From the IMG/VR virus record IMGVR_UViG_3300046314_000297: a DNA stretch of 60,615 nucleotides; one strand, written 5' to 3'. The notes below the pieces were generated by a model. It was not told where the DNA came from. It did not search any database and saw only the letters and a list, made by a program, of their open reading frames with translations. The DNA is from an uncultured virus (IMG/VR IMGVR_UViG_3300046314_000297) (Duplodnaviria; Heunggongvirae; Uroviricota; Caudoviricetes). This document shows positions 20,990 to 43,789 of this stretch, in pieces. The position numbers were made by a program, and so were the translations under genes. How positions within the stretch are numbered: position 1 is the first letter of the stretch; each line of letters opens with the position of its first letter.

Positions 20990-20991
20990 TC

Positions 20992-21177: not shown

Positions 21178-21301
21178 TAAGCCAGCCCCGAAAAAGAAGT
21201 AAGGGCACAACTCCGTAACCTAACTAAGGTTGCCTTAAACGGAGTTGCAGAAACGGGTCCACCAACTTGCGGTGTGGGCCCGTTTTTGTTATGCTGGGGG
21301 A

Positions 21302-23167: not shown

Positions 23168-23351
23168 AGAACTTAACCAAATAACGGAAGCGGCCCGCGC
23201 ACTTTACACGAACCTAAAAGCGGATATCCAGAATGCCGGTACCCGCGTCGAGCACATCAGATTAACCGCACTGACTCAGGAAGCTGCGAATCTTCTAACG
23301 GAGCTCGAGAACATGGGATCAGCTTCCAACGAAGAGTCTTCTGCAGCATAA
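23160..23351 (+). CDS. Small helical hypothetical protein
   Basis: Overlaps the upstream stop. GGAG RBS. Confidence 0.55.
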   Translation: MNEELNQITEAARALYTNLKADIQNAGTRVEHIRLTALTQEAANLLTELENMGSASNEESSAA

Positions 23352-23378
23352 CGGCCAACACTGTGATAGACTTCACAC

Positions 23379-24227: not shown

Positions 24228-24313
24228 CTCCAACTTCTAACGAAGAGATGGAAGCTGCGGCCCGCCCCTAAGGCCGGCTTGCATTCTGAACCAGGTCCTG
24301 CTAACATCGACGT

Positions 24314-25768: not shown

Positions 25769-25950
25769 CTAGTAGCTCAGCTCCTTCCCAACTTCCAACG
25801 AAGCCTGGGACCTGAATGCTGAATTTAGTCCCGTATTCATTTTTTCAATACACGTATTCATTTTTTCACAAGAGCAAAACACCCGCTGCGTGATTTGACT
25901 CGCCGAACCTTTTCTGCTAAGTTTGACCTAAGCAATGAAAGGACGGAAAA

Positions 25951-26481
25951 ATGCACGTTGCGCACATACTGCTTGTTCAAGCAGACTCAGCAGAGGACGC
26001 CTTTGAGAGGGTCGAAAGCGAACTATCACCAACTGACTATGGAGTTCGACCAGAGTGGTCAGACTGGCACAATGCCAACAACTCAGCAGAGATGAACTTT
26101 GCTGGTCGTTGGACTGGTTCATTCTTCAAGAGCGATAAAGAGGACGAGCCAAACCCAAACCACCTTTGCTACGCAGATGACAAGGCGCTCGCAGAAAGTG
26201 TTATCTCTGACCAGTTAGCCATGCGTGACGCGGAGATTGCCAACATTAGAAAGAACATGGTTTCAGACCTTTCTACTGTCACAATCAACCACTACGCAGA
26301 AAAGTGGAACATGGATTACTGGTATACCCAGAAGTTCCTCAAGTTGGCAGATAACGAGTGGACTCCAGACTCATACATTTATGACCTAGAAACCAGCACA
26401 GCGTCACTTCACTGGTTCATGGAGCGTGTCATGCTCGTGCCAAAGAAGCAGTTTCTGGTTCCTGTGGACTTCCATTATTAG
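25951..26481 (+). CDS. Hypothetical phage protein
   Basis: AAAGGACGG RBS. Motifs WSDW...AGRW and C-terminal VDFH. Confidence 0.7.
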   Translation: MHVAHILLVQADSAEDAFERVESELSPTDYGVRPEWSDWHNANNSAEMNFAGRWTGSFFKSDKEDEPNPNHLCYADDKALAESVISDQLAMRDAEIANIRKNMVSDLSTVTINHYAEKWNMDYWYTQKFLKLADNEWTPDSYIYDLETSTASLHWFMERVMLVPKKQFLVPVDFHY

Positions 26482-26510
26482 AAGTGGAGAAGTGGTGATA
26501 CACTTTTCTT

Positions 26511-26966
26511 ATGAAATCAATAGACAGATTTACAACTAAATACAAAATCAATCTAGAAACAGGCTGCTGGGACTGGATAGCAGGGACATCGGCTGGGTAT
26601 GGAGCGTTCGCGTACGAGCGCGGCAAAAAAGCCCATAGATTCTCGTACGAATACCACAACAACACCATTCTCGGCGAACTGACTATCGACCACTTATGTA
26701 GGAATACACTGTGCGTAAATCCAGAACACTTAGAGGCAGTACCTAAGGGGGAGAACTCTAGGCGCAGAAATCTCAACCACACCTATAAGAAAAAAGAAGT
26801 CTGTAAGAATGGACACTTCATAGGAAAAAATGAATACGTCAGACCAGATGGCTACTCTGAGTGCCTACTATGTAGGAGTGATAGAGGTAAGGCTTATAGG
26901 GAGAAGCATGGAGACGAGCATAGAGCCAAACTTCGTAAGTATTACCACGACAAAAAAAATAAATAA
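26511..26966 (+). CDS. HNH endonuclease
   Basis: GCWDW.....GYG....AHRFSY...IDHLCRN..CVNPEHLE.V...EN. AT-rich, with a leaderless start. Confidence 0.92.
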   Translation: MKSIDRFTTKYKINLETGCWDWIAGTSAGYGAFAYERGKKAHRFSYEYHNNTILGELTIDHLCRNTLCVNPEHLEAVPKGENSRRRNLNHTYKKKEVCKNGHFIGKNEYVRPDGYSECLLCRSDRGKAYREKHGDEHRAKLRKYYHDKKNK

Positions 26967-27055
26967 AAAACTTTCAAAATAGACTTGACACTTCGAACGA
27001 ATGGTGTAAAGTTATCAGTAGGTGGAAATCACCACCCAAAAAGTAAGGACGGAAA

Positions 27056-27526
27056 ATGACAACAATCGTTGAGCCAGTAGTCGAGACAGGTAAGCCAGCA
27101 ATCGCTGGTGTTGGTATCTATCTCGAACTCGTGCCAAAGGGCGACAACCCACACAACAAGACCACCCAGATTTTGTTTACCCCACAAGGTATGACAGAAA
27201 AGGGTCAGCCAGTAGGACTCGCCATGATTTCTCGTGAGGTCTCAACTTGGTCGCCACGCAAGCAATGGAGGCACAACTTCTCTCGCTTGACAGCAGAGCA
27301 AGAAGCACTCGCACCAGCAGACCAAGCACTCGCACTAATCGCTCGTTTCGAGACTTCTCTCAAGCGTGAGATTTACTATGGCTACGAACTACGCAACAAG
27401 CCAATCGTTTTCGAAGTTACCAACCTAGACCTCGCCGAGGTTCTGGACTGGAAAGCACCTGCTTCGGCACTACGCCGAATCCAAAAGGCACGAGTATCTC
27501 TCGGCTTTCCAGAGAAGTTAGTTTAG
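27056..27526 (+). CDS. Hypothetical protein
   Basis: Own promoter (26985) and AAGGACGG RBS. Confidence 0.7.
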   Translation: MTTIVEPVVETGKPAIAGVGIYLELVPKGDNPHNKTTQILFTPQGMTEKGQPVGLAMISREVSTWSPRKQWRHNFSRLTAEQEALAPADQALALIARFETSLKREIYYGYELRNKPIVFEVTNLDLAEVLDWKAPASALRRIQKARVSLGFPEKLV

Positions 27527-27549
27527 TCAAGGAATAGGACGGAAAAATC

Positions 27550-28590
27550 ATGACTACAACCACAGCAACCCCAGCACCAGCAACACGCTCAATGGACACC
27601 ATTGAGGTAGACGAACTGTTCGCCAATCTGACAGGTATGCTTTTCAGCGTGGCTGTTCAGGACAAGGACGCAAGTCTCAAGTCTCCAAATCTCGACTCCC
27701 TAATGCCACCTGCCGCTCGTGCTAATCTTAGAGCAAAGGCTGGCACAGGACAGGTAAAGGTAGCGAAGAAGTCAATGGTCAATGTTGAAGCACTAGAGGG
27801 TGTCGAGAAGTATCCTCGCCCAAATGGTCAGGATTACTACGCTCGCCCTTGGGGTGAACACACAGACATCGAGGTTCTCCGCAAGGCTCGAACTGCTGAC
27901 CAGTTTGTTCTCCTCTATGGTGCGCCCGGAACTGGTAAGACTGCCGCTGTTGAAGCAGCGTTCCCAGACGAACTTTACACAGTCTTGGGTTCAGGCGACA
28001 CCGAAGTTTCTGACCTCGTTGGAGGGTATGTTCAGACTCCAAGTGGCGGCTTCGAGTGGGTGGACGGTTCTCTCGTTCGCGCCGCCGAAGAGGGTAAGGT
28101 TCTTCTCATTGACGAGATTGGTCTCATTGACCCAAAGGTCTTGTCAATCGTTTATGGTCTCATGGACGGACGCAGGGAATACACCGTCACAGCGAACCCA
28201 GAGCGCGGAACTGTCAAGGCGAAAGAGGGCTTCTATGTAATCGCCGCGACTAACCCAAATGCCCCAGGAGTTCGCCTATCAGAGGCGTTGCTATCTCGCT
28301 TCTCACTCCAAGTTGAAATGACAACTGACTGGGGTCTTGCCAAGAAGTTGGGCGTTCCAGTAATCGCTGTAACTGCCGCGCAGAACCTTGCGAAGAAGCA
28401 GAGCAATGGAGAAGTTTCTTGGTCTCCACAAATGCGTGAGTTGCTCAACTTCAAGACAGTCTCGACCTTGTTTGGTTCGAAGTTCGCTGTCGAGAACCTC
28501 GCAGGTTCAGCACCAGAACTTGACCGTTCTGTTGTGGTAGATGTTCTGACCCGAGTGTTCGGCGAAGAAGTCAAGCCAGCCAAGATTTAG
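27550..28590 (+). CDS. MoxR/CbbQ/CobS-like AAA+ ATPase
   Basis: Walker A GAPGTGKT, Walker B LLIDEI, ATNP, and SEALLSRF arginine finger. Confidence 0.9.
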   Translation: MTTTTATPAPATRSMDTIEVDELFANLTGMLFSVAVQDKDASLKSPNLDSLMPPAARANLRAKAGTGQVKVAKKSMVNVEALEGVEKYPRPNGQDYYARPWGEHTDIEVLRKARTADQFVLLYGAPGTGKTAAVEAAFPDELYTVLGSGDTEVSDLVGGYVQTPSGGFEWVDGSLVRAAEEGKVLLIDEIGLIDPKVLSIVYGLMDGRREYTVTANPERGTVKAKEGFYVIAATNPNAPGVRLSEALLSRFSLQVEMTTDWGLAKKLGVPVIAVTAAQNLAKKQSNGEVSWSPQMRELLNFKTVSTLFGSKFAVENLAGSAPELDRSVVVDVLTRVFGEEVKPAKI

Positions 28591-28711
28591 CAACACCGTC
28601 CGTTGCTAATCGGGGAGTGTCAAAAAAGTTTTCGAATGGACTTGACACTCCCCACCCACTTATGCTACTTTGTTGGTAGGACGAAACACCAACACGAATA
28701 AAGGACGAAAC

Positions 28712-30484
28712 ATGGCACACTTATCTAGACTCTCAACTCGCACGAGTTCAACTCCTGTCGAGTGGCTCAAGACCTGTTCACACATTGGCGAAGTTGCTAA
28801 TGCTTGGGCTGGTCGTGGAGACCTTGCTGTCTACGCTGGCGAGGACGCTGGCATGGGCGAGGCACTTGCTTGCTTCATTATCGAGACAGCAGAAATCGAA
28901 ATCAACCTACCAAAGGCTTTTGGCAAGGCGACCACTCCAGAAATGGTTGGCGACCTACGCTTGCGCGAAGTTCAGTATGACTGGGCAGAGCCAGTTGGCG
29001 TTATCTATCACGAGGCACTTCACGCTCGTTACACCACTTGGAACATGGAGGCACTCAAGGAGAGTCCAAAGGTCGAGATTGACGCTTTCATGTTGCTAGA
29101 GGAGTCACGCATTGAAGCACGAGGCGCACGACTAATCCCAAGTAACAAGTTGTTCTTGCGCTCGTCTGCCCTTGGTCTCTCGATTGGTGACATGGCAGAG
29201 GCTGTCAAGGACATGAGCGAGGTCTGGGCGACTGCCAACCTCGCAGGTCTGGCACTTGCTCGTGTAGACGCTGGCGTTCTCGAAGCGAGTGATGTCACGA
29301 TTATCGAGGGCAAGGTTCTCGAGATTCTGGGCGAGGACTTGCTTGGCAAGTTGCGTTCAGTCTGGGTTCGCTTTCAGGCACTAGAGACTTCACAAATGGA
29401 ACAGGGCAAGGCACTCGCTCAAGAGTGGGTCGAGTTGCTACGCGAGGCAGACCCAGAGGGCGAACCTCAAGAGGGTGGCGCAGGTGGCGCAATGTCACAG
29501 GCACTCCAAGACTTGATTGACGCGCTTGGCGAGGCTGCTGGCGATACTGCTGTTCAGGTCTCGATTGACATGGGCGACCAGCAGGATTCAGAGGAACGCA
29601 AGGCAGAGGCAGAGGAACGCGCCAAGGAAAGCAAGCGACAGAACGACAACAAGCAGGAGTCGCGCGAAGTGTTCACTCGCTCGAATGGCTCGACTGGTTC
29701 TGGGTCAGATTCACGACTCCAAGAACAGCGCAACCCAACTGGACACGAACGCGCCGCCGCTGTTCAGATTGCCAAGATGTTGGAAAAGGCAAAGTATCGT
29801 GAACGCTCGCTCACCGAAATCAAGAGCCACGCGCCACAGGGTCGCCTCAAGGCTCGCGTTGCTATTCAGAACGCCGCCGCGAAGTCGCGTGGAGTTCGTG
29901 AGACACAGCCAGCGTGGGTCGCCAAGAAGCGCAAGCACACAGACGACCCGAACCTAAGCATTGGTGTCATGGTGGACATTAGCGGCTCAATGAGTTCGGC
30001 AATGGAGGCAATGGCAACTACGGCGTGGGTCATGGGAGAAGCAGGTCGCCGCGTTCAAGCCAAGACCGCAATGGTCTACTTCGGCTCGGGAGTGTTCTCG
30101 ACTCTCAAGGTCGGTCAGAAGTTGGACAAGGTTTCGGTCTACTCCGCGCCAGACGGAACGGAGAAGTTTGACAAGGCGTTCAAGGCACTAGACGGCGAGT
30201 TGAACCTGACCTACGGCGAGGGTGTTCGTATGTTGGTCGTTGTATCAGACGGACAGTTCACCAGCGTAGAAATGGAAAAGGCTCAAGCCGCGGCTCGCCT
30301 TTGTGACCGCAACGGAGTCGCGCTTCTTTGGATTACGCCAGAGGCTTGCTGGAGTGGCAAGGGTCAAGCCTTGCTCAACGGCACGAGCGGCGTGGTTCTG
30401 GACAAGATGAAAACAGACGAGATTGCGCTCGCTATCGGTAAAGCCGCCGCCGAAGCACTCGGTAAGGTGGGTTCAAAGTTCTAG
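28712..30484 (+). CDS. CobT-like protein: HExxH domain plus C-terminal VWA domain
   Basis: YHEALH...LLEESRIE, an acidic linker, MIDAS DISGSM and VVSDG. Paired with the upstream ATPase. Confidence 0.85.
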   Translation: MAHLSRLSTRTSSTPVEWLKTCSHIGEVANAWAGRGDLAVYAGEDAGMGEALACFIIETAEIEINLPKAFGKATTPEMVGDLRLREVQYDWAEPVGVIYHEALHARYTTWNMEALKESPKVEIDAFMLLEESRIEARGARLIPSNKLFLRSSALGLSIGDMAEAVKDMSEVWATANLAGLALARVDAGVLEASDVTIIEGKVLEILGEDLLGKLRSVWVRFQALETSQMEQGKALAQEWVELLREADPEGEPQEGGAGGAMSQALQDLIDALGEAAGDTAVQVSIDMGDQQDSEERKAEAEERAKESKRQNDNKQESREVFTRSNGSTGSGSDSRLQEQRNPTGHERAAAVQIAKMLEKAKYRERSLTEIKSHAPQGRLKARVAIQNAAAKSRGVRETQPAWVAKKRKHTDDPNLSIGVMVDISGSMSSAMEAMATTAWVMGEAGRRVQAKTAMVYFGSGVFSTLKVGQKLDKVSVYSAPDGTEKFDKAFKALDGELNLTYGEGVRMLVVVSDGQFTSVEMEKAQAAARLCDRNGVALLWITPEACWSGKGQALLNGTSGVVLDKMKTDEIALAIGKAAAEALGKVGSKF

Positions 30485-30717
30485 GATTCCACTAGCGCAA
30501 CGGTAGGCTTTCGGGTTCGTTCATGCCCGCCTCCTTTCCCTATCGGCTACTGGATAGAGACCCTCGACAGATTCGTCCCTGTCGGGGGTTTCGCACTTTC
30601 GGCGAGCGCAGGTCGTATTCATTTTTTCATTCTGTCTTTCGACTTCTGACGAAAGATGTTTGACACTCGTTTGAAGTATGCTAAGTTTGAACTATTCCTA
30701 GAAAGGGGAAAACAGAA

Positions 30718-31644
30718 ATGCCAAATCACGTTTGGAACAGCATTGGGGTTTCAGGGGCTATCGCTGACATTGAAGCGTTCGTTGCTAAGGCTGGCAAGCC
30801 ACACATTACAGAGTTCAAGGGCAAGCGTTATCAGGACGAAACTGGCGCTTGGAAGTATGACCCAGAGATTATTGACACCCACGAGGACACAGACCCATTC
30901 TCATTCTGGAACTTCATAAAGCCAGACGACGAGATTCTTCCTGTCTACTTTGGACACGAGAAGTCAGAGAAGCCAGAGGGCTACGAGGGCTGGGACTTCG
31001 CGGAGAAGATGGCGCACGACCTCAAGTTCACAGGCAACAACGCATACGACTGGAACGTTCGCAACTGGGGAACCAAGTGGGACGCATACGACCAGACCTT
31101 CGACGGCGTGACAACTGACGAAGCGATTGGAAAGGCGAGTGCGACTTACAGTTTCAATACGGCGTGGAGTATCCCAGTTCCAGTATTTGAAGCACTCTGC
31201 GAACAGCACCCAGAGTTGAGTTTCTCGTTTGAGTCGGAGGAGGAACAGGGCTGGGGCGCGACTTACGAGTCAAGCGCGGTAGACGACCCAGAGGACGGCG
31301 AGCCTACATCCGCACTACTTCTCATCAGCGAGTGGGACATCCCTGAGAGCCACGCAGAGTTGGTAGCCCGAGGGCGAGAATGCCACTGCGAGTATGACGA
31401 CGACGAGGACTCGTGGTATGACGACTGCCCTCGTGAAGAACGAGTGTTCACCGTTGTCGTTGAGCAGACTTTCGTGGTCAAGGCGACGGACGCAGAGAAG
31501 GCTTGGGAACTTGCCGAGGAACACCTCAACAAGCCGATTGAGAACTTGCCAGAGGGAGTCGAGCAGTCGGATGAGTATTCGCTGTTCGTCAAGAACCCAG
31601 AGACTGGCGAGCGTTTGTATCCGACACTCGGAGGGGGTGAGTAG
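30718..31644 (+). CDS. DUF1281/YubB ferredoxin-like domain protein
   Basis: MPNH..N, WNVRNWGTKWD, F.TAWS.P. Confidence 0.75.
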   Translation: MPNHVWNSIGVSGAIADIEAFVAKAGKPHITEFKGKRYQDETGAWKYDPEIIDTHEDTDPFSFWNFIKPDDEILPVYFGHEKSEKPEGYEGWDFAEKMAHDLKFTGNNAYDWNVRNWGTKWDAYDQTFDGVTTDEAIGKASATYSFNTAWSIPVPVFEALCEQHPELSFSFESEEEQGWGATYESSAVDDPEDGEPTSALLLISEWDIPESHAELVARGRECHCEYDDDEDSWYDDCPREERVFTVVVEQTFVVKATDAEKAWELAEEHLNKPIENLPEGVEQSDEYSLFVKNPETGERLYPTLGGGE

Positions 31645-31890
31645 CGTGGCAACACCAAAGACACCGAAGCCGAAGATGGGCAACGGCGCAACGACTCGTC
31701 TGACAGACGGACGACGCAAGTAGCAGAGGGAGAGGGCGAAAGCCCTCTCTTTTCTTTTGCCCCTCGTATTCATTTTTTCGTCATTGCCACGCCGATACAC
31801 GCCGCGATTTGACACGAGTTTGGAATAGGGTATAGACTACGAGAGTAGTCAACGAGGAAATGCCTCGACTACACAAAGGAGGGGATTGAA

Positions 31891-32283
31891 ATGGCAACTG
31901 CCGAACTTCAATCAGCACAGGTTGCTAAGGCGACCACCAGCATTACCAGCACCACAGAGGACAACCTAGTTGTTCTAACCCCTGCGATTCAGAAGCAGGT
32001 CAAGGCACTACGCGAGGCTCGCAATGTAGCGAAGCAGGCAAAGGCTCTAGGGGATACAGCACGAGACGTTATCTTGGAGTTCGTGGGGGAGACCACCACC
32101 AACCTCGTGGGCGTGGACGCAAAGGGCAAGCGTTTGATTAGCCTCAAGTTGATTCCAAGTTCAGAGAGTTTCGACTGGGCACGACTTCAACTTCAGCAGC
32201 CTGAGTTGTTCGAGATGCTCAAAAAGGAATACACCATTCCTCGTGGGGCAGGCGCACCAACTCCACGAGTGGACACGATTTAG
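31891..32283 (+). CDS. Hypothetical protein, related to 35898-36224
   Basis: Own promoter, GGAGGGG RBS and terminator. Confidence 0.7.
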   Translation: MATAELQSAQVAKATTSITSTTEDNLVVLTPAIQKQVKALREARNVAKQAKALGDTARDVILEFVGETTTNLVGVDAKGKRLISLKLIPSSESFDWARLQLQQPELFEMLKKEYTIPRGAGAPTPRVDTI

Positions 32284-32446
32284 TCCACTCACGAAAGTCG
32301 CTGGCGAGAGTTCCCCTCTCTCGCTGGCGATTTTTTGTATGGAGGCTGTATTCATTTTTTCATTAGATCCATAACTTCCAACGAATGGTTTGACTTGGAG
32401 ATAACAAACTGGTAAAGTGGAAGTAACTCAACCAAAGGGGATTCAA

Positions 32447-32899
32447 ATGAGAACCAGAGAATACGACCTCAACGTTTACGTCACAGATGGCGTGGCACGT
32501 TTGTCAGCATACGAATACACATATAGCGACAGCGACGACCCTCAGCCAAATGGCACAGAGATGAGCAAGTTCGTCACGTTGGAAGTTCCAATGGACAAAG
32601 CACACCACGACGAAGTGGCGTTTCTACTGAGCGACGAGGACTGGCAAGACTCACCAGTGGCAGACTGGCAGGACTACGACAGCCCATGGGAAAACTTGGC
32701 GTGGCTAGAGACAGCACCGGCAAGCATAAGAGCGTGGGGAGACGCGCTCGCGGAATACGAGCCGACCACTCAACACGAGTGGGAACTCTACACAATGGAC
32801 TTGAAATACGGCGAACGGCGAGACGTGAAGTGCCTCAACTGCGACGCGACATACCCTATCTACCGTTTGACATGGGAACAGATGACGGCTAAGGTGTAG
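32447..32899 (+). CDS. Acidic hypothetical protein with C-terminal CxxC
   Basis: AAGGGG RBS before ATG 32447. Confidence 0.65.
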   Translation: MRTREYDLNVYVTDGVARLSAYEYTYSDSDDPQPNGTEMSKFVTLEVPMDKAHHDEVAFLLSDEDWQDSPVADWQDYDSPWENLAWLETAPASIRAWGDALAEYEPTTQHEWELYTMDLKYGERRDVKCLNCDATYPIYRLTWEQMTAKV

Positions 32900-32901
32900 G
32901 T

Positions 32902-33126
32902 ATGAGAAAAGACATCAAGCAACTACGGATACTCGCAGAGCAACAAGGCTGGAGAGTAGAGCGCACTAACGGCGACCACTTACGGTGGCTCGCGCCAGAG
33001 GGTGGCATGGCTATCTACTCGGCAAGCACACCGTCTAATGCTCGCGGAATACTCAACCTCAGAGCGCAACTGCGTAAAGCGGGTCTACATTTAGAGAAGC
33101 ACGGCAAGCAAAAGGTGAACGCATGA
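32902..33126 (+). CDS. HicA-like small basic protein
   Basis: QGWRVERTNGDHLRW..P.G.....STPS. Confidence 0.6.
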   Translation: MRKDIKQLRILAEQQGWRVERTNGDHLRWLAPEGGMAIYSASTPSNARGILNLRAQLRKAGLHLEKHGKQKVNA

Positions 33127-33419
33127 AACTGTATCGGCAAGCACTAGGCGAGGTTCTGCGCGAAGCAAGAACGGTGAGGGGTCAGACCCTGCGACAAGTC
33201 TCAACGGCTGCCTCGTGCGCCCTCGGATACCTGTCGGAGTTGGAGAACGGACACAAGGAAGCGTCCTCGGAGATTTTGGAGGGGCTTGCCCGTGCGCTCA
33301 AGGTGACGGTGAGTGAACTCGCTATCCGTGCTGGCTTGCGTATAGCGGAGGAGAGTATCCCTGATACCCCTGCCGAACTCTACGAGGAAGCACCGGCCCT
33401 CATTCCTCACCGAGGATAG
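33123..33419 (+). CDS. XRE-family HTH regulator, ClgR-like
   Basis: LGEVLR..R...G.TLRQVS......LGYLSELE.G.KEASSE.L...AL. Confidence 0.8.
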   Translation: MKLYRQALGEVLREARTVRGQTLRQVSTAASCALGYLSELENGHKEASSEILEGLARALKVTVSELAIRAGLRIAEESIPDTPAELYEEAPALIPHRG

Positions 33420-33533
33420 CCTCGGGTGGTAACCCCGTATTCATTTTTTCAACAACCGACACGGCGAGCGCAATACTTGCTTGACGGCTTGCCGTAGGGT
33501 ATAGTTGGACTATCCAATGAAAGGGGTTGCCAA

Positions 33534-33929
33534 ATGGCAGAGAACATCACAACGGCGGGGCTAGTAGCCACCACACCAAGATACCTAGTCACGGCAGACG
33601 GCTTGCCGATTACTTCATTCCGGCTTGCCACAACTTCAAGAAAGTTTGACGCGCGAACTGGCGAGTGGGTTGACGGCGAGGCTAACTGGTATACCGTTAC
33701 CGCCTTCCACGACTTGGCTATCAATGCGGCAAGCAGTATCGAGAAGGGTCACCGTATTGTCGTTCAAGGCGCGGTTAGAGTGCGCGACTGGGATAACGGC
33801 GAGCGAAGCGGAACATCCGTAGAGATTGAAGCCGAGGTCATAGGTCACGACTTGAGTTGGGGAACCGCTGTGTTCACCCGAACCGTCTTGACTCGTAGGG
33901 TAGAGAAGCCAGAGACCGTGGGGGTATAG
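33534..33929 (+). CDS. ssb: Single-stranded DNA-binding protein, short form without acidic tail
   Basis: FRLATTSR.FD..TGEWVDG..W..V..F..LA.N...S..KG.R..V.G....R.W....GTSVEIEA..IG. Confidence 0.88.
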   Translation: MAENITTAGLVATTPRYLVTADGLPITSFRLATTSRKFDARTGEWVDGEANWYTVTAFHDLAINAASSIEKGHRIVVQGAVRVRDWDNGERSGTSVEIEAEVIGHDLSWGTAVFTRTVLTRRVEKPETVGV

Positions 33930-34105
33930 AGACCTTACCGAACAGATAGAGAAAACGCGGGAACTTGCTATCCCGCGTTTTTTCATAGTCGGGGTCGTAT
34001 TCATTTTTTCAACCGGCACGACACTTCACACTAAGATTTGGAAGTTGGCACGGAAAGTGGTAAGGTTGAACTATCACCGAAGACAAGGGTGAGAAAAGGG
34101 AAGAG

Positions 34106-37100
34106 ATGAACGAGATAAAGATTTGCCCAAAGTGTCAGGGCTACATCCCAAACAACAAGACACCGGGGGCATACTCAGGCGCGATTTCACGCCGAGACAA
34201 CAAGACAGAGATTTGTTCGGCTTGCGGAACTCATGAAGCGTTCGAGGACCTTTTCGCGAAAGAGCGAGTCAATGGCTAAGGCAGAGTGTTACGACTGTGA
34301 CGCGGAAATTGAAGTCGAAGACTCAACCTATGTCCACCCCTTGTGCGCTGAGTGTCAGAACGAAGCAGACGACTGGCTACAAACACAGATGTTGCTAATG
34401 AACTAAAAGTCACGCTCACCGAAAGGTGGGCGTTTCTTTTACGCCGCATCGCGTATTCATTTTTTCACCAACACAGTGGCGATTACTCACAACAACTCAC
34501 GAATGATTTGATTTTGTCCTAGCAGGGTGATAAGTTTGATTTGTTGCCGAAGTTCAGTAAGCAACGAAAGGGGCAACAAAATGGGTAACAGGGCTTGGAT
34601 TCAGATTTCAGCAGAGCAGTTTGAAACACCTATCAGCCTTTATGGTCACTGGTCGGGCGAGGACAACCTCACCGCCGTAGTCAAGACCCTAGAGAGTTCA
34701 ACACGCATTGGGGATGTGTCATACCTCACAGCACAGATTTTCTTCCACTTCACGCAACTAGGTGGCTACACAGGCGACACAGGGTTTGGCATTTCGACAG
34801 GCGAAGCCCCTAGCGTAGACGATGTGGACACCGTTTATGTGAACGCTGATAATGGTGAGTATACTTATCAGGGCGTAACTCACCACGAGTTTGCGCTAAT
34901 GAAGGCTTGAGTCGAGGTCGAGTCCACCACTCCCTTGATTCATTGGGTTAGGGTTAGCCCCCTTTCCCTAACCCCGAACGCCAGTAGATAATCCCCTTAT
35001 CTACTGGCGTTCACCATTTCTCAGGGATACGAGGCGTATTCATTTTTTCCTCGAGCTCAGACACGACGCAACAACTCACGAATGATTTGACTTGATACGA
35101 GTTATGTGTTACTTTTGTATTGCCTTTGAAAAGGCAGAAAGATAAGGGGCAACATGGAAAAGGTATTAGAGATTCGCAAGTTTGAGATTAGCTCAGACTG
35201 TTCATGCGAGGTATACGACGAGGACACAGACACGTCTTCACCAAGCGACGAGTGTTTCAACTGTTTCGCCGACGACAAGGATAATTTCAAATACGTGATT
35301 CTTCAGCCATGGCTTGAGGCTAATGGTTGGGATGAGGACACAGTTGTTTATGTGTTCAGCGCGAACATGAACTGGAATCACGTCGCGGGATGGACAAACG
35401 TCTACGCGAGAGAGGCTATCGACTGCCTAACTTTGAATGGCGAGTTTACCCTTAGTTACAAGTTGGATGGCAAGAACTTGACTTGCGTTCGTTCAAGCCA
35501 CGACGAACATGGCGCGTTGTTCACGTTCAGTGAGGCACAGAAGGATTATCGCGATGAGTAACCTAGTGTTCACCGGCCCTCGCGCCGTTCTCTCTCAGTT
35601 GTCTGCCGATTCGACAGTCATGTTCTCTCAGTTGATAGAGGATGACGAGTTGGTCGCGATGGTGTTAGCCAAGAAGCCATACGACACGTTGCTTGAATAC
35701 GTGAACGAAAACTACTGAGTCACGACAGGGAAGCCCCGCGGAAACGCGGGGTTTCTTTTTGCCCGCGGGAAGTCGCCGTATTCATTTTTTCAGCGAGCCT
35801 AGAGCCGACACGCTTAGGATTTGGTGTTTTTTGAAATAGGGGGTATCATTGACTTATGAAGTCAATAAGGCTTCACTAAATAGAAGGGGGTCGCCAAATG
35901 GCTACCAAGATTCAGAAGGCAACCGCGGTTGTCACCGAGGCTCGCAAGGTCTCAAAGGTTGTTGTTGCTAACGCCGAGCGTCTAGCGTTCGTTCGTGCCG
36001 AGGTTATTCGTCTAGAGGCAGAAGCCAAGCTCTTGCGCGATGGGCTTATCGCGGTTGCCGATGGCGCAACTACTCTTGTCCACAACAACATCGCCATCGT
36101 TGAGATTTCACCACGCTCAACCTCACGCGTAGACTCGAAGGCGTTGAAGGTTATGTTTCCTGAAGCATACGAGGCAACACTCAAAGTCACCGTATCACCT
36201 GTCGTGGATGTTCTGAAGCGATAAACGCCACGAGGAAGCCCCCTAGGATTCTCTAGGGGGTTTTTCCTTACCCTAAACACGCCAAGCCCGCCACGAGGCA
36301 CACAGCCCCGCCACGAGGGCGTATTCATTTTTTCGTCAAAACACGCCAGCTGAGGATTTGATTTGACAAGTGTCCGGCTTATGGATAAGATTTAGTTATA
36401 ACTAAATAGATGCACCACTCAATGCACCACCAACCTAAGGGGATTCAAATGGCAACTATGGCACCTGCTACCAACACCACTACCAAGTTCGACCTAGGCG
36501 CGACTCTAGACGAGCCGACCACCGCATCAGTCGTCACCGAGGTCGAGAAGTTCGACAACACTATGGTCTATGCCAAGACTTCACTAGAGATGTTCGTTAG
36601 CGCGGATAACGTGGATGACACAGTCTACCTTGACCTTCGCCAACTCAACTTTGTACGACTGGGCCCAACCGACGAAGAACAGATGCACGTATTCACCACC
36701 TTGCTCAACCACCGCTTCACTCGCGAGCAGGCCGAGGCACTGGTCGCCACGTTCACTCACGAACTCGCGAAACTCTAGCGAGCGCGACAAGCCCCTGTCG
36801 AAAGGCAGGGGTTTTGTCATTCCCCGGCTGTATTCATTTTTTCACAAGAAGACACAGGAGTGGGCTGAGATACTATGTTTTGTCCGAGGGGTTTGATAAA
36901 ATGGGAGTATCCAAATGAAAGGGGATAAAGAATGACAAACTACAGCGACGTGGAAGTTGCTCTTGAGAACGCTAAGGCGATTGCTTGGGACACCTGCCAC
37001 AAGATTTACGTTCTAATGGATGACGAGCAAGTTGAGAAGATGCGCGAGTACGAGTACGACCCTCTAATCACGAGCGACGAGATGGACCCTAGCGAAATGC

Positions 37101-38493
37101 TGTCCACGATTCAAACTTGGTATGAGGACTCTTGCGGATTGCGTTTCGTAGAAAGCGTCACCACAAATCACGAAGACCCTAACCTTGGGTTTGAAAGTCT
37201 GATTCCACAGGGCGCGGATGACGAAGATGACGACACCGACGAATCTGAAGACGACTACTTCGATGACGAGGATGACGAAGATGAGTAAGTTCGCGTTCAA
37301 CCTAGTTCTCAAGACTGATTACATCGAAGCAGAGAACATCGAAGAAGCAGAGAAGTTGCTGAACAAGTACATCGATGGGCTGGCTATGGTTGGTGAGCCT
37401 GAGATTACTTGGGACGAAGTTGACTGGCAGACCTTTGAAGGCGACCTAGTAATCAAAGACTTTAGTTCGCCCCTCAACTGAGCACGAAGAAGAACGCTCT
37501 CGAAAGAGGGCGTTTTTTCTCAGGCCCGTTGTATTCATTTTTTCAACTGGCGACACGGGGGGTTGGTCGAAAGTTGCGAAGGTTTGTCGAAAGTAGTAAA
37601 GTAGTTCTGTTGGCAAAAGCCAGCGTAAAGGGATAAGGGGTTTGAAATGAAGTTTGTAGTTCGTAGAGCAGTCATTGGAGTTCTAGCAGTTCCAGCAGTA
37701 GCCGGTGCGTATGTGTTTGGGTATCTAGGTCTGTTGCTTCTAGGCGCGGAGGGTGCGCTCAAGATTGAAGAAATCTGGAACAATGGAATGTTGATTGGTG
37801 GCGTGTGTGCCGTAATGCTCGTGTTCGCGCCACAGGTAAACAAGTTCCTCGACAGGGTTACTGGAGAGTAAAAGACTTGGCAGGGTTTATCCCCCTATCC
37901 CCTGCCCAAGAAAAGAGCGTGACCATTCCGCTCACGGCTAGGCACTTCCCCCAAGTGTCTAGCCTTTTTCTTTGCTCGGAAGTGTATTCATTTTTTCACC
38001 CTGCGACACGCGGATACAGATTGGATTTGCGCTCGCCGAGGATTTCCTGTAATGTAGTTCTTGTAGCCAGCAAGGGGTTGGCAGACAAGGGGTTCAAATG
38101 CTAAAGACTTCAACAGCCGAGTGCGTAGATTGCGCGGTTGCTATCACCAGCGACAACACGCAAGACGAGGGTGGAAAGTTTGCTTCACCACAGGGGGAAT
38201 ACGCTATCTGCGACAACTGCGCCAATGCTCGCATTGACGCTTACCTAGAGAACTAAGGGGCAGGGAAAATGGCCGACTCAATGAAAGGTTCTGGGATTGA
38301 CTCCGAGGACTACACCGCTTGGTTCTTTTGCTCACATTGTGACGAGGAACTGGAACTTGATGGAAAGTCAGACGACTATGGGATTATTGCGACAGCCGAG
38401 TGTCCTAAGTGCCGTTCAACCCTAGAGGTTGAAATGCCTAGCAAGGAACAGTTGCGCGAGGACTACCTAGCCGACTACGACCCAAACAACTAA
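34106..38493 (+). CDS. Small cassette genes: 34106-34279, 34272-34406, 34581-34910, 35154-35561, 35554-35718, 35898-36224, 36449-36778, 36932-37288, 37281-37481, 37647-37871, 38098-38256, 38269-38493
   Basis: The first gene of each unit follows a promoter and a purine-rich (mostly AAGGGG) RBS. Most are acidic or CxxC proteins, and 37647-37871 is a two-TM protein. Functions unknown. Confidence 0.7.
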
Positions 38494-38738
38494 ATAGACT
38501 TACCTAGCGCGGGCAACTTCGCTAGGTGGGAGAGAACCGAGTAACCCCCTTGCTCGTGCGACTCCGAAAGAGCCAGACACTAATCCCCTTGTGTCTGGTT
38601 CTTTTGTTTCTACGGTGCTATTCATTTTTTCAGCAAGACTCCCCCGGGCGTGTCGATTTGCGCCACCCTGGTTGGGGTGCTACAGTTGATACTGTAGTCA
38701 GGAAGCAGATAGCGGAGGGCTACACGCAAGGGGAAGAA

Positions 38739-39074
38739 ATGTCTTCAATCATTACTGTTCCAGTTCAGTTCCAGGCCGAGGACTTCTGGAGTGAAATCAT
38801 GGGTTCAGCCTGGGAGACCTGGGACTGGTGGGTGACCCTGGACTACAGCCAGGGCGCGTCCTGGGACAAGGTTGGCGAAATCACCGTTACATCCTGGGAC
38901 GGCGAGACCGAGGGCGAGACCCTAGTCACCAAGACCCTCACCATCCAGGACCTGGCTGAGTCTTACGGCAAGTGCCTGGCCGAAGGGTTCCGAATCAACA
39001 TCCACGACCTGGACGCCGGCCAGGGCGACGTCATCCTTCAGATGGCAATGTTCGGAGAAGTCGTCTACGGATAG
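38739..39074 (+). CDS. Acidic hypothetical protein on CCWGG-rich DNA
   Basis: AAGGGG RBS. C-terminal DLDA..GDVILQ.A.FGEVVYG. Confidence 0.7.
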   Translation: MSSIITVPVQFQAEDFWSEIMGSAWETWDWWVTLDYSQGASWDKVGEITVTSWDGETEGETLVTKTLTIQDLAESYGKCLAEGFRINIHDLDAGQGDVILQMAMFGEVVYG

Positions 39075-39111
39075 TTTCACCAGGACGCCCCTCGGCAGAA
39101 ATGCCGGGGGG

Positions 39112-39162
39112 TTTTCCACAGCCTGTGGAAAGTTATCCACAGACTTATCCACATGTGGATAA
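39112..39162. promoter_or_regulatory. Cluster of five DnaA-box-like 9-mers
   Basis: TTTTCCACA at 39112 (+), CTTTCCACA at 39124 (-), TTATCCACA at 39133 (+), 39145 (+) and 39154 (-). Confidence 0.85.
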
Positions 39163-39307
39163 CTTTTTTTGGAGAGGTCTATTCATTTTTTCGTCAAACG
39201 ACACGCACTTACGGAGACGATTTGACAGCTGCCAAAAACCCGAGTAGGCTTACTAATGTAATCAGGAAGCCAAGGGGGCGGAGGGTTACTGAAGGGGTGG
39301 GGTTCCA

Positions 39308-39646
39308 ATGGGACTTCTTATCAGCGTGTATCGGTCGGACTACGACAGCAAGGCAAATGTTTTCCACGGAAAGCGTCAGCTAGTTCTCGTGAATGTCGAA
39401 GGGCCATTCCAGCCATCAGACAACGCACCAGCTGCCAAGTTGGTTCAGGGTCACGGTAAGACCGCAATCATCGTGCCAGCGGACGAAGGCTTTGACGGCG
39501 TTCAGATGAACGGCGGAACTTACGGCTCAACCAGCGACAGTCGCTTTCAGCGAGCCGTAGAGGGACTAGTCGGAGTCTCACACTTTGCGGTGGCAATCCA
39601 CGACCGTCGTGAGTCGTGGGCGGAATACGAGCAGTTCAGCCAGTAG
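39308..39646 (+). CDS. Hypothetical phage protein
   Basis: Motifs NVEGPF.P...APA, MNGGTY..TSDSRF and AIHDR.E. Own promoter and terminator. Confidence 0.7.
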   Translation: MGLLISVYRSDYDSKANVFHGKRQLVLVNVEGPFQPSDNAPAAKLVQGHGKTAIIVPADEGFDGVQMNGGTYGSTSDSRFQRAVEGLVGVSHFAVAIHDRRESWAEYEQFSQ

Positions 39647-39801
39647 GCAACCAAGCGAAAGGCTCACCCGAAGGGGTGGGCTTTTTTCTTGCTCGTTAGT
39701 CTATTCATTTTTTCATCCGGATGCGGGGAAGCTTGCGCGGTTCGTTGGAAGTTGGTAAAGTTGGAGTATCAACCAGATTGGTTGAAGATAAGGGGCTTCA
39801 A

Positions 39802-40149
39802 ATGGAAAAGATTGGTTTGGTAGTGGACTCGGAGTTCACCGCGTCTGTGACCAGGTTGTCACTCAAGGAACTACAAGCTGCGGTCGATGGTCTGATTCAG
39901 CCGATTGACATTCGCGAGGGCTTGACTATGTGGGTAAACGAGGAGTTCTTGTTTCGCTCAGAACCAGACGCAAACGTTTTGGCTAGTGCGTTCTTCGCTG
40001 AGGCTGGTGGAAAGTATGACATCCACGGAACTGTCGTCTTCACTGGTGGCACGGATGAGGATGGCAACACTCTCGGGCTGTCAGACGAGCACCGCGAGTT
40101 AGTGGAGTCGCTCTGTAAGTTCGGGATTGGCGTTCGCGAAATGGCTTAG
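39802..40149 (+). CDS. DUF3846-like protein
   Basis: LKELQAAVDG.I......MWVNEE......N..AS......I.G.VVFTG..D..G.T.GL. Confidence 0.75.
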   Translation: MEKIGLVVDSEFTASVTRLSLKELQAAVDGLIQPIDIREGLTMWVNEEFLFRSEPDANVLASAFFAEAGGKYDIHGTVVFTGGTDEDGNTLGLSDEHRELVESLCKFGIGVREMA

Positions 40150-40321
40150 ATTTCAAAAAAGGAAAGTCCGGCTTCGGTCGGGCTTTTTCTTTTTCTCGGG
40201 GCTATTCATTTTTTCCTTCAGCTCGCAGACAACACACGGAAGTTCGTGGGAAGTTGCGTAGGCAGGGCGTTTCGATTAGGCTTAGGTCATAAGCCAAATG
40301 GTTTGGCGAAAGGGGATTCAA

Positions 40322-43300: not shown

Positions 43301-43789
43301 TTGACTTATCAAGTCAAGGTGACTTGGAGATAAGGGGTTCAAAATGAAAACACGTAACGCACGCGCATGGAGCGCAATCTTTATTCTTGGCATGGCAGTA
43401 GTCGGCGCGGTCGACTTGAACAACATCCAATCAGCTGACGATGCCAGTGAATTCTTTGGGTACGTTGTCGCTGTAGACGTGGCCATGTTTGCGGTAGGCC
43501 TAGCCCTGTTCGCCTACAACATCGCAACCTTCAAGCGTTCAAAGGTAGGTGCATAATGACGCACGCGGTGTTGATTGAAGATGCACTTACGGGTGACCTT
43601 CTTGACCTTCGTTACTACTGCTCTGATTCATGCGCTCAGGATGACGTGGCCTACTCAGGATGGAATGGCTGCATTGAGCTCATGTTTGGGCAAGTGTGTG
43701 AGCGTGAAGGGTGTGAGAGCATCCTGCATGGCGTGAGCGAGTGTGTCTGCTCTGACGCTTCGTGTGTCGGGTCTCTGATAGACGTCTAG
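40322..43789 (+). CDS. Small cassette genes: 40322-40555, 40558-40785, 41223-41372, 41567-41737, 42044-42805, 42975-43217, 43344-43556, 43556-43789
   Basis: Promoter, RBS and terminator context. 42044-42805 has ENTGRSFLDSGG..GRAWQRN and LQIHGGADVRGGY motifs. Functions unknown. Confidence 0.65.

What the first reader, a model, noticed from the sequence alone, without database searches (positions are those of the whole stretch)
28587..38605. 3' hairpin loops complementary to the unit's own ribosome-binding site, with covariation
Seen, as RBS and matching loop: genes 27056 and 27550 use AGGACGG, and the hairpin after them (28587-28609) has loop ACCGTCC. Gene 28712 uses AGGACGAA, and its 3' hairpin (about 30559-30590) has loop ATTCGTCC. 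Gene 31891 uses GGAGGGGA, and its terminator reads TTCCCCTC over the loop (32311-32318). Gene 34581 uses GAAAGGGG and is followed by CCCCCTTT and ATCCCCT loops. Gene 37647 uses GGGATAAGGGG and is followed by TTATCCCCCTATCC. Genes 38098 and 38269 use AAGGGG and are followed by CCCCC and TAATCCCCTT loops. Most other units have ordinary terminators. Established: 3' fold-back SD occlusion in type I toxin mRNAs, and C-rich loop sRNAs (cuckoo RNAs, RsaE). Inference: a translational shut-off by 3'-5' pairing or 3'-derived sRNAs, possibly acting across cassettes or on host mRNAs.
Basis: partly seen in the sequence, partly recalled or inferred. Interest (0 to 1): 0.8.

Follow-up and report, generated by a model that had tools for sequence, protein, structure and literature searches.

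The report
Phage mRNA tails mirroring own RBS
Two neighbouring early genes of an uncultured lake phage end in small RNA hairpins whose loops mirror the ribosome-landing site at the front of the same message, and related phages change both sides together, so each message probably throttles its own translation; the C-rich loops elsewhere in the region are a separate, generic kind.

Summary

They fall into two classes.

1. **AAA_5 ATPase ("cobS", 27550-28590) and the next 590-aa gene ("cobT-like", 28712-30484).** Their 3' hairpin loops are gene-specific anti-RBS elements.
   - In 56 related loci, each gene's 3' region matches its own RBS better than its neighbour's: 48 and 44 of 56.
   - Among 43 diverged representatives, an own match of 7 nt or more occurs in 25 of 43, against 179 of 1806 cross pairs.
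   - There are 26 distinct co-varying word pairs, and 33 of 36 begin within 8 nt of the stop codon.
   - This supports cis 5'-3' RNA pairing of the icaR/hok-fbi kind.

2. **C-rich loops of units 31891, 34581, 37647 and 38098/38269.**
   - They match the cassette-wide AAGGGG RBS, not their own unit in particular.
   - They stay C-rich in homologs whose RBS lacks G-runs.
   - They belong to a conserved hairpin RNA with fixed loops and co-varying stems.

There are no expression data.

Earlier notes of this scan describe the same idea on related phage DNA.

The parts
27046..27052 (+). RBS AGGACGG of gene 27056-27526, the first gene of the transcription unit that also holds the ATPase gene
   Evidence: Read. 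In a nested fold of 27015-28660 these bases pair with 28596-28603 in the MFE structure, P about 0.77.
27536..27542 (+). RBS AGGACGG of the AAA_5 ATPase gene ('cobS', 27550-28590)
   Evidence: Pfam AAA_5, E 1.4e-23. It gives 6 bp with loop 28595-28601, duplex -12.0 kcal/mol.
28587..28609 (+). Stop-codon hairpin of the ATPase gene. Stem TTAGCAAC/GTTGCTAA contains TAG 28588-28590. Loop ACCGTCC (28595-28601) is the anti-RBS.
   Evidence: Counterparts exist in related phages with co-varying loop and RBS words.
28671..28694 (+). 5'-UTR hairpin of the 590-aa gene. It shows a first copy of AGGACGAAAC (28678-28687) in its loop.
   Evidence: Relatives likewise show the upstream partner site in a 5' hairpin loop.
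28702..28711 (+). RBS AGGACGAAAC of the 590-aa 'cobT-like' gene (28712-30484), second exact copy of the 10-mer
30530..30539 (+). CCTCCTTTCC in the 3' UTR of the 590-aa gene. It resembles the 16S anti-SD tail; that resemblance is recalled, not from a call.
   Evidence: Read. Flagged as a match to AAAGGA of the RBS. Not followed up.
30557..30592 (+). 3' hairpin of the 590-aa gene: 14-bp stem, loop ATTCGTCC (30571-30578), which is the anti-RBS
   Evidence: duplex -11.0 kcal/mol. The orthologous loops match their own RBS over 15 nt in G007 and over 12-14 nt in L002, L003, L015 and L037. In DSL-LC01 the loop carries TTGTCCTTT, the complement of the RBS word AAAGGACAA (9 nt); the 13-nt longest match there lies further upstream, at -33.
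32293..32335 (+). Terminator of gene 31891 with C-rich loop TTCCCCT (32311-32317)
   Evidence: The G006 homolog has loop CCCCCC with a non-matching RBS, and the G007 homolog has loop GAAA.
34904..35012 (+). Three-hairpin 3' UTR of gene 34581: H0 over the stop codon, H1 34945-34974 (loop TTAGCCCCCTTT), H2 34976-35012 (loop TCCCC)
   Evidence: The same architecture occurs in L078, L080, L082 and L084. In the H1 stem, 7 of 9 pairs change on both sides.
37879..37964 (+). 3' UTR of gene 37647: hairpin 37879-37906 (loop TTTATCCCCCTATC) and terminator 37936-37964 (loop CCCCC)
38538..38606 (+). 3' UTR of genes 38098/38269: hairpin 38538-38556 (loop CCCCC) and terminator 38565-38606 (loop TAATCCCCTT)
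   Evidence: Similar two-C-loop modules occur in G006 (14774-14803 plus the next hairpin) and in G007.

Best explanation
There are two different things here.

(A) The ATPase gene and the 590-aa gene each carry a gene-specific anti-RBS element in the 3' UTR.
- For the ATPase gene, it is a small hairpin whose 5' arm is made of the last codons and the stop codon. Its loop is the reverse complement of that message's ribosome-binding site.
- For the 590-aa gene, it is a larger hairpin 20-90 nt after the stop. In many relatives it is two-part: the loop pairs with the SD, and an adjacent unpaired stretch pairs with a 5'-UTR hairpin loop.
- Shown: the two ends are complementary, in a gene-specific way, and have changed together many times.
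- Inferred: they pair as RNA, as loop-RBS or loop-loop kissing. This masks the RBS once the 3' end has been transcribed, so that each message gives a limited, self-timed amount of protein and may become a double-strand RNase substrate.
- Inferred: because the ATPase stop codon sits in the stem, a terminating ribosome must melt the hairpin. Ribosome traffic could therefore feed back on re-initiation.

(B) The C-rich loops after genes 31891, 34581, 37647 and 38269 belong to a conserved hairpin RNA module.
- The H1 loop is UUAnCCCCCUuu and the terminator loop is C5-6.
- The loops are fixed while the stems co-vary.
- They complement the AAGGGG RBS dialect used by this promoter class as a whole, not the RBS of their own gene.
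- They most likely act as generic anti-SD RNAs on cassette messages, their own included. This is inferred.
For: (A) Gene-specific anti-RBS elements.
- One search gave 76 related IMG/VR loci.
- Swap test within 56 unique loci. The ATPase 3' region matches the ATPase RBS better than the neighbour's RBS in 48, ties in 4 and is worse in 4. The 590-aa gene's 3' region matches its own RBS better in 44, ties in 8 and is worse in 4. Wilcoxon p is 9e-10 and 4e-8.
- ATPase element. A complement of 7 nt or more occurs in 36 of 55 unique loci. Of these, 33 of 36 start at -1 to +8 nt from the stop. There are 26 distinct words, for example AGGACTAA/TTAGTCCT in L002 against AGGACGAA/TTCGTCCT in L003.
- 43 diverged representatives. 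Own matches of 7 nt or more: 25 of 43. Cross matches: 179 of 1806. 0 of 20000 permutations reach the own total.
- 590-aa gene. Its own RBS is the strictly best of all genes in the locus in 20 of 55 and tied best in 15, against 6.1 expected. The collinear two-site score is 11.96 for own pairs against 9.40 for cross pairs, with 0 of 10000 permutations as high. The longest match is 15 nt, in G007.
- Specificity. Among 221 called genes of the complete 153.7-kb relative G007 there is no general own-RBS excess, and the 590-aa gene is the top hit.
- Window. Nested fold of 27015-28660 pairs RBS 27046-27052 with the loop at P 0.77. AGGACGAAAC occurs exactly three times, and + strand TTCGTCC occurs once.
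- Mechanistic precedent (abstracts read): icaR, PMC3868564; distal aSD-like sequences pair with the RBS, promote decay and block initiation, PMC12697547.

(B) C-rich loop module.
- as given in the summary.
- A GGGG-type RBS is found in 14 of 26 called genes in the cassette region, 5 of 38 to the left and 0 of 15 to the right.
- 6C sRNA uses C-rich loops to bind mRNAs (PMC6486639, abstract).
Against: - No transcript ends, RNA levels or translation data. The one RNA run gave only short contigs.
- The window's own matches are short (6 and 7 nt). Shuffled loops reach the same duplex energy in 7 and 23 of 1000 trials, which is weak once about 30 hairpins are considered. The case therefore rests on relatives.
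- 19 of 55 unique loci lack an ATPase match of 7 nt or more. DSL-LC01 lacks the ATPase element.
- The cultured soil relatives Pumpernickel and Forza lack both elements.
- Loci are phylogenetically related, so p-values overstate independence.
- Gene starts were assigned by a simple rule in my scripts.
- Nested folding gives P of about 0.02 or less for the ATPase RBS and 0.04 or less for the 590-aa gene's RBS. It cannot model kissing loops.
- The direction of the effect, brake or enhancer, is not shown.
- For (B), no target is demonstrated. Units whose own RBS is G-rich could still use the loops in cis.
Confidence: 0.7

Rival explanations
1. All the loops, those of the ATPase and 590-aa genes included, are generic mimics of the 16S anti-SD or trans-acting anti-SD RNAs. 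The apparent match to the own RBS only reflects each phage's RBS dialect.
For: - The C-rich loops match many units equally well or better.
- In DSL-LC01 nearly all genes share GAAAGGACAA, and the loop of the 590-aa gene matches that word.
- Some cross-gene matches of 10-12 nt exist.
Against: - Within one phage the two genes have different RBS words, and each 3' element follows its own: 48 of 56 and 44 of 56.
- Matches extend beyond the SD core, for example CTTTTAGAAAGGG, TGACGGAAGGAC and CAACGAAAGGACGAA.
- In the window the 590-aa gene's loop follows GGACGAA, not the majority AAGGGG.
Confidence: 0.12
2. The pairing is real but activating. It closes the mRNA into a loop so that ribosomes released at the stop codon are handed back to the nearby RBS, or it protects the 5' end from 5'-dependent RNases, as in the hbs mRNA.
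For: - The anti-RBS lies within 8 nt of the ATPase stop codon in 33 of 36 loci, and the stop codon is in the stem. A terminating ribosome must therefore open it.
- The hbs 5'/3'-UTR interaction concerns stability (PMC5737220; search listing and start of abstract only).
Against: - Pairing with the SD itself should block 30S binding.
- Both experimental precedents read here are inhibitory (abstracts).
- Nothing here tests direction.
Confidence: 0.15
3. The complementary words are DNA-level terminal inverted repeats of mobile gene cassettes (recombination or transposition ends), not RNA partners.
For: - The region is an array of modular cassettes with an invariant box.
- Earlier scan notes propose shuffling at that box (unchecked).
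Against: - The 5' repeat sits at SD distance from the start, at -10 to -19 in 34 of 36 loci.
- The 3' repeat sits in a hairpin loop right after the stop.
- G·U-compatible changes occur in G006 and G007.
- Only two genes of the 221 called in G007 show it.
- The repeats lie inside the cassette, between promoter and terminator, not at its borders.
Confidence: 0.03
4. Chance: purine-rich RBSs and pyrimidine-rich loops match by composition.
For: - The window's own matches are 6-8 nt.
- Cross-locus pairs reach 7 nt in about 10% of cases.
Against: - Permutation and swap tests.
- The positional constraint.
- 12-15-nt matches.
- Strand asymmetry: 8 distinct hairpins with CCCC loops (9 rows) against 0 with GGGG.
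Confidence: 0.02

Closest known systems
icaR mRNA 5'UTR-3'UTR pairing, Staphylococcus aureus (PMC3868564; abstract read)
   Same: A C-rich anti-SD motif in the 3' UTR pairs with the SD of the same mRNA. In icaR this blocks the initiation complex and creates an RNase III substrate.
   Different: - Here it is a phage gene pair and a whole family of more than 50 loci with natural compensatory changes.
- The anti-RBS sits in a hairpin loop.
- For the ATPase gene it abuts the stop codon, which is itself in the stem.
- For the 590-aa gene the contact is often two-part, with a 5' hairpin loop.
- No experiment exists.
hok mRNA fold-back inhibition (fbi-tac pairing) of type I toxin-antitoxin loci (recalled; no call)
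   Same: The 3' end of a full-length mRNA pairs with its 5' translation-initiation region and keeps it closed. Co-transcriptional timing matters.
   Different: There is no toxin gene, no antisense RNA, no evidence of 3' processing, and no sequence relation.
Long-range aSD-like sequences that pair with the RBS in Bacillus subtilis (Gill et al. 2025 preprint, PMC12697547; abstract read)
   Same: Pyrimidine-rich sequences hundreds of nucleotides downstream pair with the RBS, promote decay and inhibit initiation.
   Different: That work reports such sequences as depleted from genes. Here they are conserved, gene-matched and placed in 3' hairpin loops.
6C sRNA of Actinobacteria (Rfam 6C; PMC6486639, abstract read)
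   Same: For the C-loop modules only: two hairpins showing C-rich loops that could bind G-rich mRNA sites. The host group is Actinobacteria.
   Different: - No Rfam match at E up to 10.
- The modules lie in 3' UTRs of phage protein genes.
- The loop consensus is UUAnCCCCCUuu.
- Targets are unknown.
RsaE and cuckoo (CcsR) RNAs with UCCC or CCUCCUCCC loops
   Same: C-rich hairpin loops complementary to SD regions; stems vary while loops stay fixed.
   Different: Different phyla, stand-alone genes, and no model match here.

Membership tests
icaR-type intramolecular 3'UTR-RBS pairing (functional class) | A sequence in the 3' UTR complementary to the SD region of the same mRNA | tested here: met
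   Window: 6 nt (28595-28601 against 27536-27542) and 7 nt (30571-30578 against 28702-28711). Relatives: up to 15 nt.
icaR-type intramolecular 3'UTR-RBS pairing (functional class) | Pairing supported by compensatory changes on both sides | tested here: met
   Natural covariation: 26 distinct word pairs, swap test 48 of 56 and 44 of 56, permutations 0 of 20000. No mutagenesis.
icaR-type intramolecular 3'UTR-RBS pairing (functional class) | Inhibits formation of the initiation complex and/or gives an RNase III substrate | not testable with these tools
   Needs toeprinting, reporter or RNase assays.
hok-type fold-back inhibition | Type I toxin ORF with antisense RNA and 3' processing that opens the mRNA | tested here: not met
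   The genes are an AAA_5 ATPase and a 590-aa protein with no Pfam or PHROG family. No antisense promoter or toxin-like ORF was seen. Processing is not testable.
6C RNA (Rfam) | Match to the family covariance model | tested here: not met
   cmscan of 25500-43500 at E up to 10 gave 12 weak matches. None was 6C and none lay on the C-loop hairpins. The gathering-score scan of the whole window gave only tmRNA and tRNAs.
6C RNA (Rfam) | Two hairpins with C-rich loops | tested here: met
   Units 34581, 37647 and 38098/38269 each have two. Homologous modules occur in L078, L080, L082, G006 and G007.
Intrinsic terminator | GC-rich hairpin directly followed by a U tract | tested here: inconclusive
   Met for 37936-37964. 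By reading, also met for 32293-32335, 34976-35012 and 38565-38606. Not met for 28587-28609, which is followed by AATCGGGG. Weak for 30557-30592, which is followed by TTTCGCACTTTC.

The most novel reading that the evidence does not exclude
The early cassettes of this phage clade have a private layer of translational control built only from RNA.

1. Two enzyme genes carry 'addressed' anti-RBS loops. In the ATPase gene the stop codon lies in the stem, so the terminating ribosome itself opens and closes the RBS lock. This would be a ribosome-gated closed loop that meters protein per transcript.

2. The whole promoter class uses an unusual AAGGGG RBS dialect. C5-6-loop RNAs encoded in a few cassette tails can bind it more tightly than the ribosome's CCUCC. 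This would let the phage shut off its early class without touching late or host messages.
Probability: 0.25. Interest if true: 0.85.

Novelty: new variant of a known kind. Interest (0 to 1): 0.7.

Why it matters
Intramolecular 3'UTR-RBS pairing in bacteria rests on a few single-gene examples (icaR, hok, hbs). Recent reporter work argues that anti-SD-like sequences are normally purged from genes.

This family offers a natural, evolution-tested counter-case:
- dozens of diverged phages keep a gene-matched anti-RBS in a defined 3' hairpin;
- there are many independent compensatory changes;
- the geometry, with the stop codon in the stem, links termination to initiation.

It gives a ready set of natural 'mutant and rescue' pairs for reporter tests. 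It would also add a rule for annotating phage 3' UTRs.

The C-loop modules suggest that phages of Actinobacteria encode 6C-like regulators tuned to the RBS dialect of their own early genes.

Tried and rejected
- **Known-sequence and Rfam searches.** Megablast of 27000-31700 against phages found no match. Rfam found nothing on any hairpin, in the window or in 10 related loci.
- **Sequencing runs.** 24 runs were listed, one of them RNA with a 0.05 share. Laying X24, X5, X6 and X8 gave only short contigs. The RNA run had six pieces of 151-201 nt, one of them 163 nt inside the ATPase gene with 1 difference. There was no cover of the hairpins, no ends and no informative variants at loops or RBSs.
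- **Nested folding of 22 whole units.**
  - It cannot model loop-loop contacts.
  - My assumed 3' ends run past the terminators.
  - RBS-3'UTR pairing also appeared in units with ordinary terminators (36449 mean 0.52; 35898 mean 0.33).
  - It was about 0 for units 28712, 31891, 34581 and 38098.
  - I treat it as inconclusive, except for the unit 27056/27550 result.
- **RNAduplex on full-length UTRs.** Own -25.7 against cross -23.0 kcal/mol, with 0 of 10000 permutations as low, but no locus ranked first. The measure is noisy.
- **Searches for more homologs.** The search for related loci for genes 31891 and 38269 returned one locus each, so those units have thin comparative data. Gene 37647 was not searched.
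- **Alignments of the C-loop module.** RNAalifold on five 34581-type tails recovered only H1. MAFFT did not put H2 in structural register, so H2 covariation rests on single folds.
- **Inner 3-bp stem of the 590-aa gene's element.** 89.8% of cells are paired but few changes occur on both sides.
- **Stop-codon hairpin search.** The permissive search found a hairpin in 55 of 55 loci. It has no null model and is descriptive only.
- **Cultured relatives.** Microbacterium phage Pumpernickel and Gordonia phage Forza have tight operons and no element.

Full report
**Setting**

- The window is part of a 73.8-kb uncultured viral contig (handle G001).
- Its nearest named relative is the metagenome-assembled Actinomycetia phage DSL-LC01 (tblastn of the ATPase gene, 73% identity; record read; the paper was seen only as a search listing).
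- Positions 25.8-43 kb hold about 23 small transcription units.
- Each unit is headed by the box GTATTCATTTTTTC. There are 23 copies at up to 2 mismatches, against 0.41 expected. A promoter-like GATTTGAC, an RBS and one to three genes follow, then hairpins.

**Observation**

- Folding the 3' regions of the 23 units shows two kinds of terminal hairpin.
  - Tetraloops (GAAA, GAAG, TTCG, CTCG) occur in most units.
  - Larger loops carry pyrimidine words in six units.
- The C-rich loops are strand- and region-specific.
  - In 25501-43500, 9 hairpin rows (8 distinct hairpins) have CCCC in the loop and none has GGGG.
  - The remaining 42.6 kb has 1 CCCC and 3 GGGG.
- Inside the window the claim of unit-by-unit matching holds only in part.
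  - The loop at 30571 is uniquely best for its own RBS (7 nt).
  - The loop at 28595 ties with unit 25951, which uses the same RBS.
  - The C-rich loops match the shared AAGGGG(A/T) RBS of many units as well or better. Their own unit ranks 2nd to 20th of 23.

**The two enzyme genes**

- Gene 27550-28590 is an AAA_5 ATPase (Pfam E 1.4e-23; PHROG 'ATPase' and 'porphyrin biosynthesis').
- Gene 28712-30484 has no Pfam or PHROG family. Its DSL-LC01 homolog is annotated 'cobalamin biosynthesis protein'. I use 'cobS' and 'cobT-like' only as labels.
- The search for related loci with the 590-aa protein gave 76 IMG/VR loci at 40-61% identity.

*The 590-aa gene*

- Nearly all loci have a hairpin within about 100 nt of the stop whose loop carries a word complementary to the locus's own 5' UTR.
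- Examples: 13 nt in L003, 12 nt in L015, 14 nt in L037, and 15 nt in the complete relative G007. In DSL-LC01 the loop carries TTGTCCTTT, the complement of the RBS word AAAGGACAA; its longest match (13 nt) lies further upstream, at -33.
- Compared with DSL-LC01, the window shows a compensating insertion. The RBS reads GGAC-AA against GGACGAA, and the loop reads TT-GTCC against TTCGTCC.
- In 55 unique loci the gene's own RBS is the strictly best partner among all + strand genes of the locus in 20 and tied best in 15, against 6.1 expected.
- Many relatives have a two-part contact in antiparallel order. A 5'-UTR hairpin loop (xGGACAx) and the SD ((T/C)GGAAGGA) face a 3' mini-hairpin loop (UCCUUCC(A/G)) followed by UGUCC.
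- Both parts co-vary: GGACAC/GTGTCC, GGACAACG/CGTTGTCC, GGGACA/TGTCCC, and CGGAAG/CTTCCG against TGGAAGG/CCTTCCA.
- The collinear two-site score is 11.96 for own pairs and 9.40 for cross-locus pairs, with 0 of 10000 permutations as high.
- In one group of loci (for example L026-L035) the partner of the loop is a 5' hairpin loop (GGUCGGAAGCC) and not the SD. The conserved feature is therefore 5'-3' contact, which usually but not always covers the SD.
- In L008 and L072 the loop matches the RBS of the upstream ATPase gene over 14 and 11 nt, where the two genes look co-transcribed.
- In the window the 10-mer AGGACGAAAC occurs exactly three times, all on the + strand.
  - One copy is in the loop of a 5'-UTR hairpin (28671-28694).
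  - One copy is the RBS (28702-28711).
  - One copy is in a hairpin loop inside the next gene (30833-30842).

*The ATPase gene*

- The intergenic stretch behind its stop codon carries the reverse complement of that gene's own RBS region. These RBS words differ widely between phages.
- Examples: AGGACTAA, AAGGACAC, GACACGAA, CACAGGGAG, GACATAGGG, GAAAGGGACT, TCTAAGGGGG, AACGAGGAG, CCAAGGAGT.
- L002 and L003 differ by one base on each side (AGGACTAA/TTAGTCCT against AGGACGAA/TTCGTCCT).
- A complement of 7 nt or more occurs in 36 of 55 unique loci. Of these, 33 of 36 start at -1 to +8 nt from the stop, and the RBS side lies at -10 to -19 in 34 of 36. There are 26 distinct words.
- The last codons plus the stop codon form the 5' arm of a small hairpin, for example AATCTAA(G)...(C)TTAGATT. 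In the window it is TTAGCAAC...GTTGCTAA, and the anti-RBS is its loop (descriptive, no null model).
- Using only 25 nt before the start and 25 nt from the stop, 43 representatives that differ at more than 12 of 50 positions give own matches of 7 nt or more in 25 of 43, against 179 of 1806 cross pairs. 0 of 20000 permutations reach the own total.
- G006 and G007, which share the window's cassette architecture, have loops UUCCGUUC and AUCCGUUC. By my reading, these pair with the same GGACGGAA through a G·U pair.

*Gene specificity*

- Within each of 56 loci the ATPase 3' region matches the ATPase RBS better than the neighbour's RBS in 48 (4 ties, 4 worse).
- The 590-aa gene's 3' region matches its own RBS better in 44 (8 ties, 4 worse).
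- In G007, 221 called genes show no general excess of own-RBS complements: 14 have 7 nt or more within 100 nt (0.063), against 0.093 for cross pairs. The 590-aa gene stands out at 15 nt.
- The element is therefore particular to this gene pair. It is not a genome-wide habit and not a simple echo of an RBS dialect.

*Limits*

- The loci are related to one another.
- Gene starts were set by rule in my scripts.
- Only Watson-Crick runs were counted.
- 19 of 55 loci lack an ATPase match of 7 nt or more, DSL-LC01 among them.
- Two cultured soil relatives lack both elements.
- The window's own matches are short: duplex -12.0 and -11.0 kcal/mol, with shuffled loops as good in 7 and 23 of 1000 trials.

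**How it probably works**

- Shown: complementary, gene-matched and co-evolving ends; fixed placement relative to the start and stop codons; display of the 3' word in a hairpin loop.
- Inferred: the ends pair as RNA.
- A nested fold of the whole unit 27015-28660 pairs the first RBS (27046-27052) with the loop at P 0.77. Loop-loop contacts cannot be modelled this way, and the survey of all units was confounded.
- Two abstracts give the expected consequence. In icaR, 3'UTR-SD pairing blocks the initiation complex and creates an RNase III substrate (PMC3868564). In B. subtilis, distal aSD-like sequences pair with the RBS, promote decay and inhibit initiation (PMC12697547).
- I therefore favour a brake. 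The RBS is free while the message is being made and is masked once the 3' hairpin exists, which limits output per transcript.
- Because the ATPase stop codon lies in the stem, each terminating ribosome must melt the hairpin. That could couple termination to the next initiation. This last step is speculation. An activating closed loop is the main rival for the direction of the effect.

**The C-rich loops**

- Homologs of gene 34581 were found at 12 loci. In four of them (L078, L080, L082, L084) the tail keeps the same three hairpins.
  - H0 lies at the stop codon. Its loop is UCGAGaUUACUC in three of the four.
  - H1 has loop UUAnCCCCCUuu.
  - H2 is a terminator with a C5-6 loop.
- The stem sequences all differ. 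For H1, 7 of 9 pairs change on both sides, 86.7% of cells pair, and 0 of 500 shuffles reach this.
- Units 37647 and 38098/38269 carry similar two-C-loop modules. So do a unit in G006 and one in G007.
- The loops do not follow the own RBS.
  - L084 has RBS GAAAGGAAAC with C6-C8 loops.
  - The G006 homolog of gene 31891 has RBS GAAAGGAAAT with loop CCCCCC, and the G007 homolog has a GAAA loop.
- GGGG-type RBSs are a mark of the cassette class: 14 of 26 called genes there, against 5 of 38 to the left and 0 of 15 to the right (rough gene calls).
- These modules are therefore best read as generic anti-SD hairpin RNAs for this gene class, acting in trans or in cis-plus-trans. Their design is like that of 6C sRNA (abstract), but they are not members of that family (no Rfam hit).

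**Literature**

- Five searches of the held library found no description of such an element in phages. Only listings were seen, plus the three abstracts named above.
- Subscription journals are not covered.

**Earlier notes of this scan**

- Earlier notes on related phage DNA describe the same idea (e1-6162736, e1-5744536, e1-5337283, e1-6076926).
- They are AI notes and were read after my own tests. They are not independent evidence.

**Verdict**

- This is a new variant of the known 3'UTR-RBS pairing kind. The comparative support is unusually rich, and no experiment exists.

Noticed in passing
window 25833-42870: An invariant box (G/C)TATTCATTTTTTC heads about 22 cassettes. It lies roughly 35-45 nt upstream of a GATTTGAC -35-like element. 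Relatives G006 and G007 use the one-letter variant TATTTATTTTTTC, with 22 and 15 copies. Earlier scan notes discuss it.
   Followed up: partly
window 28612-28653: A perfect 12-bp inverted repeat, GGGGAGTGTCAA ... TTGACACTCCCC. Its 3' arm contains the -35-like TTGACA of the 590-aa gene's promoter. It could be an operator, or a terminator overlapping a promoter.
   Followed up: no
window 30822-30851: A third exact copy of AGGACGAAAC sits in the loop of a 9-bp hairpin inside the coding region of the next gene (30718-31644). It could also pair with the 30571 loop if transcription reads through.
   Followed up: partly
window 39127-39168: TTATCCACA occurs twice directly and once inverted (TGTGGATAA), forming a 15-bp hairpin before a T run. 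By recall these look like DnaA-box words.
   Followed up: no
window 4832-7072: The phage carries a tmRNA gene (Rfam 105.6 bits) and four or five tRNA genes: Asn, Gly, Thr, Trp, and one weak hit.
   Followed up: no
window 38066-38092; G007 and G006 homologous units: The 5' UTR of unit 38098 holds two copies of CAAGGGGTT. By reading, the first lies in a small hairpin (GCCAGC...GTTGGC) and the second is the RBS. This echoes the duplicated site in the 590-aa gene's 5' UTR. It is conserved in G007 and, more loosely, in G006.
   Followed up: partly
window, whole: RBS dialect differs by region. AAGGGG-type dominates the cassette array, GGAG/GAGG-type the left 26 kb, and AGGA-type the right 17 kb (rough gene calls).
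   Followed up: partly
L001 (DSL-LC01) 7209-24584: DSL-LC01 uses a different repeated promoter box (GATTCTAAAGATGTTATAATAGAATCA) and an almost uniform RBS, GAAAGGACAA.
   Followed up: no
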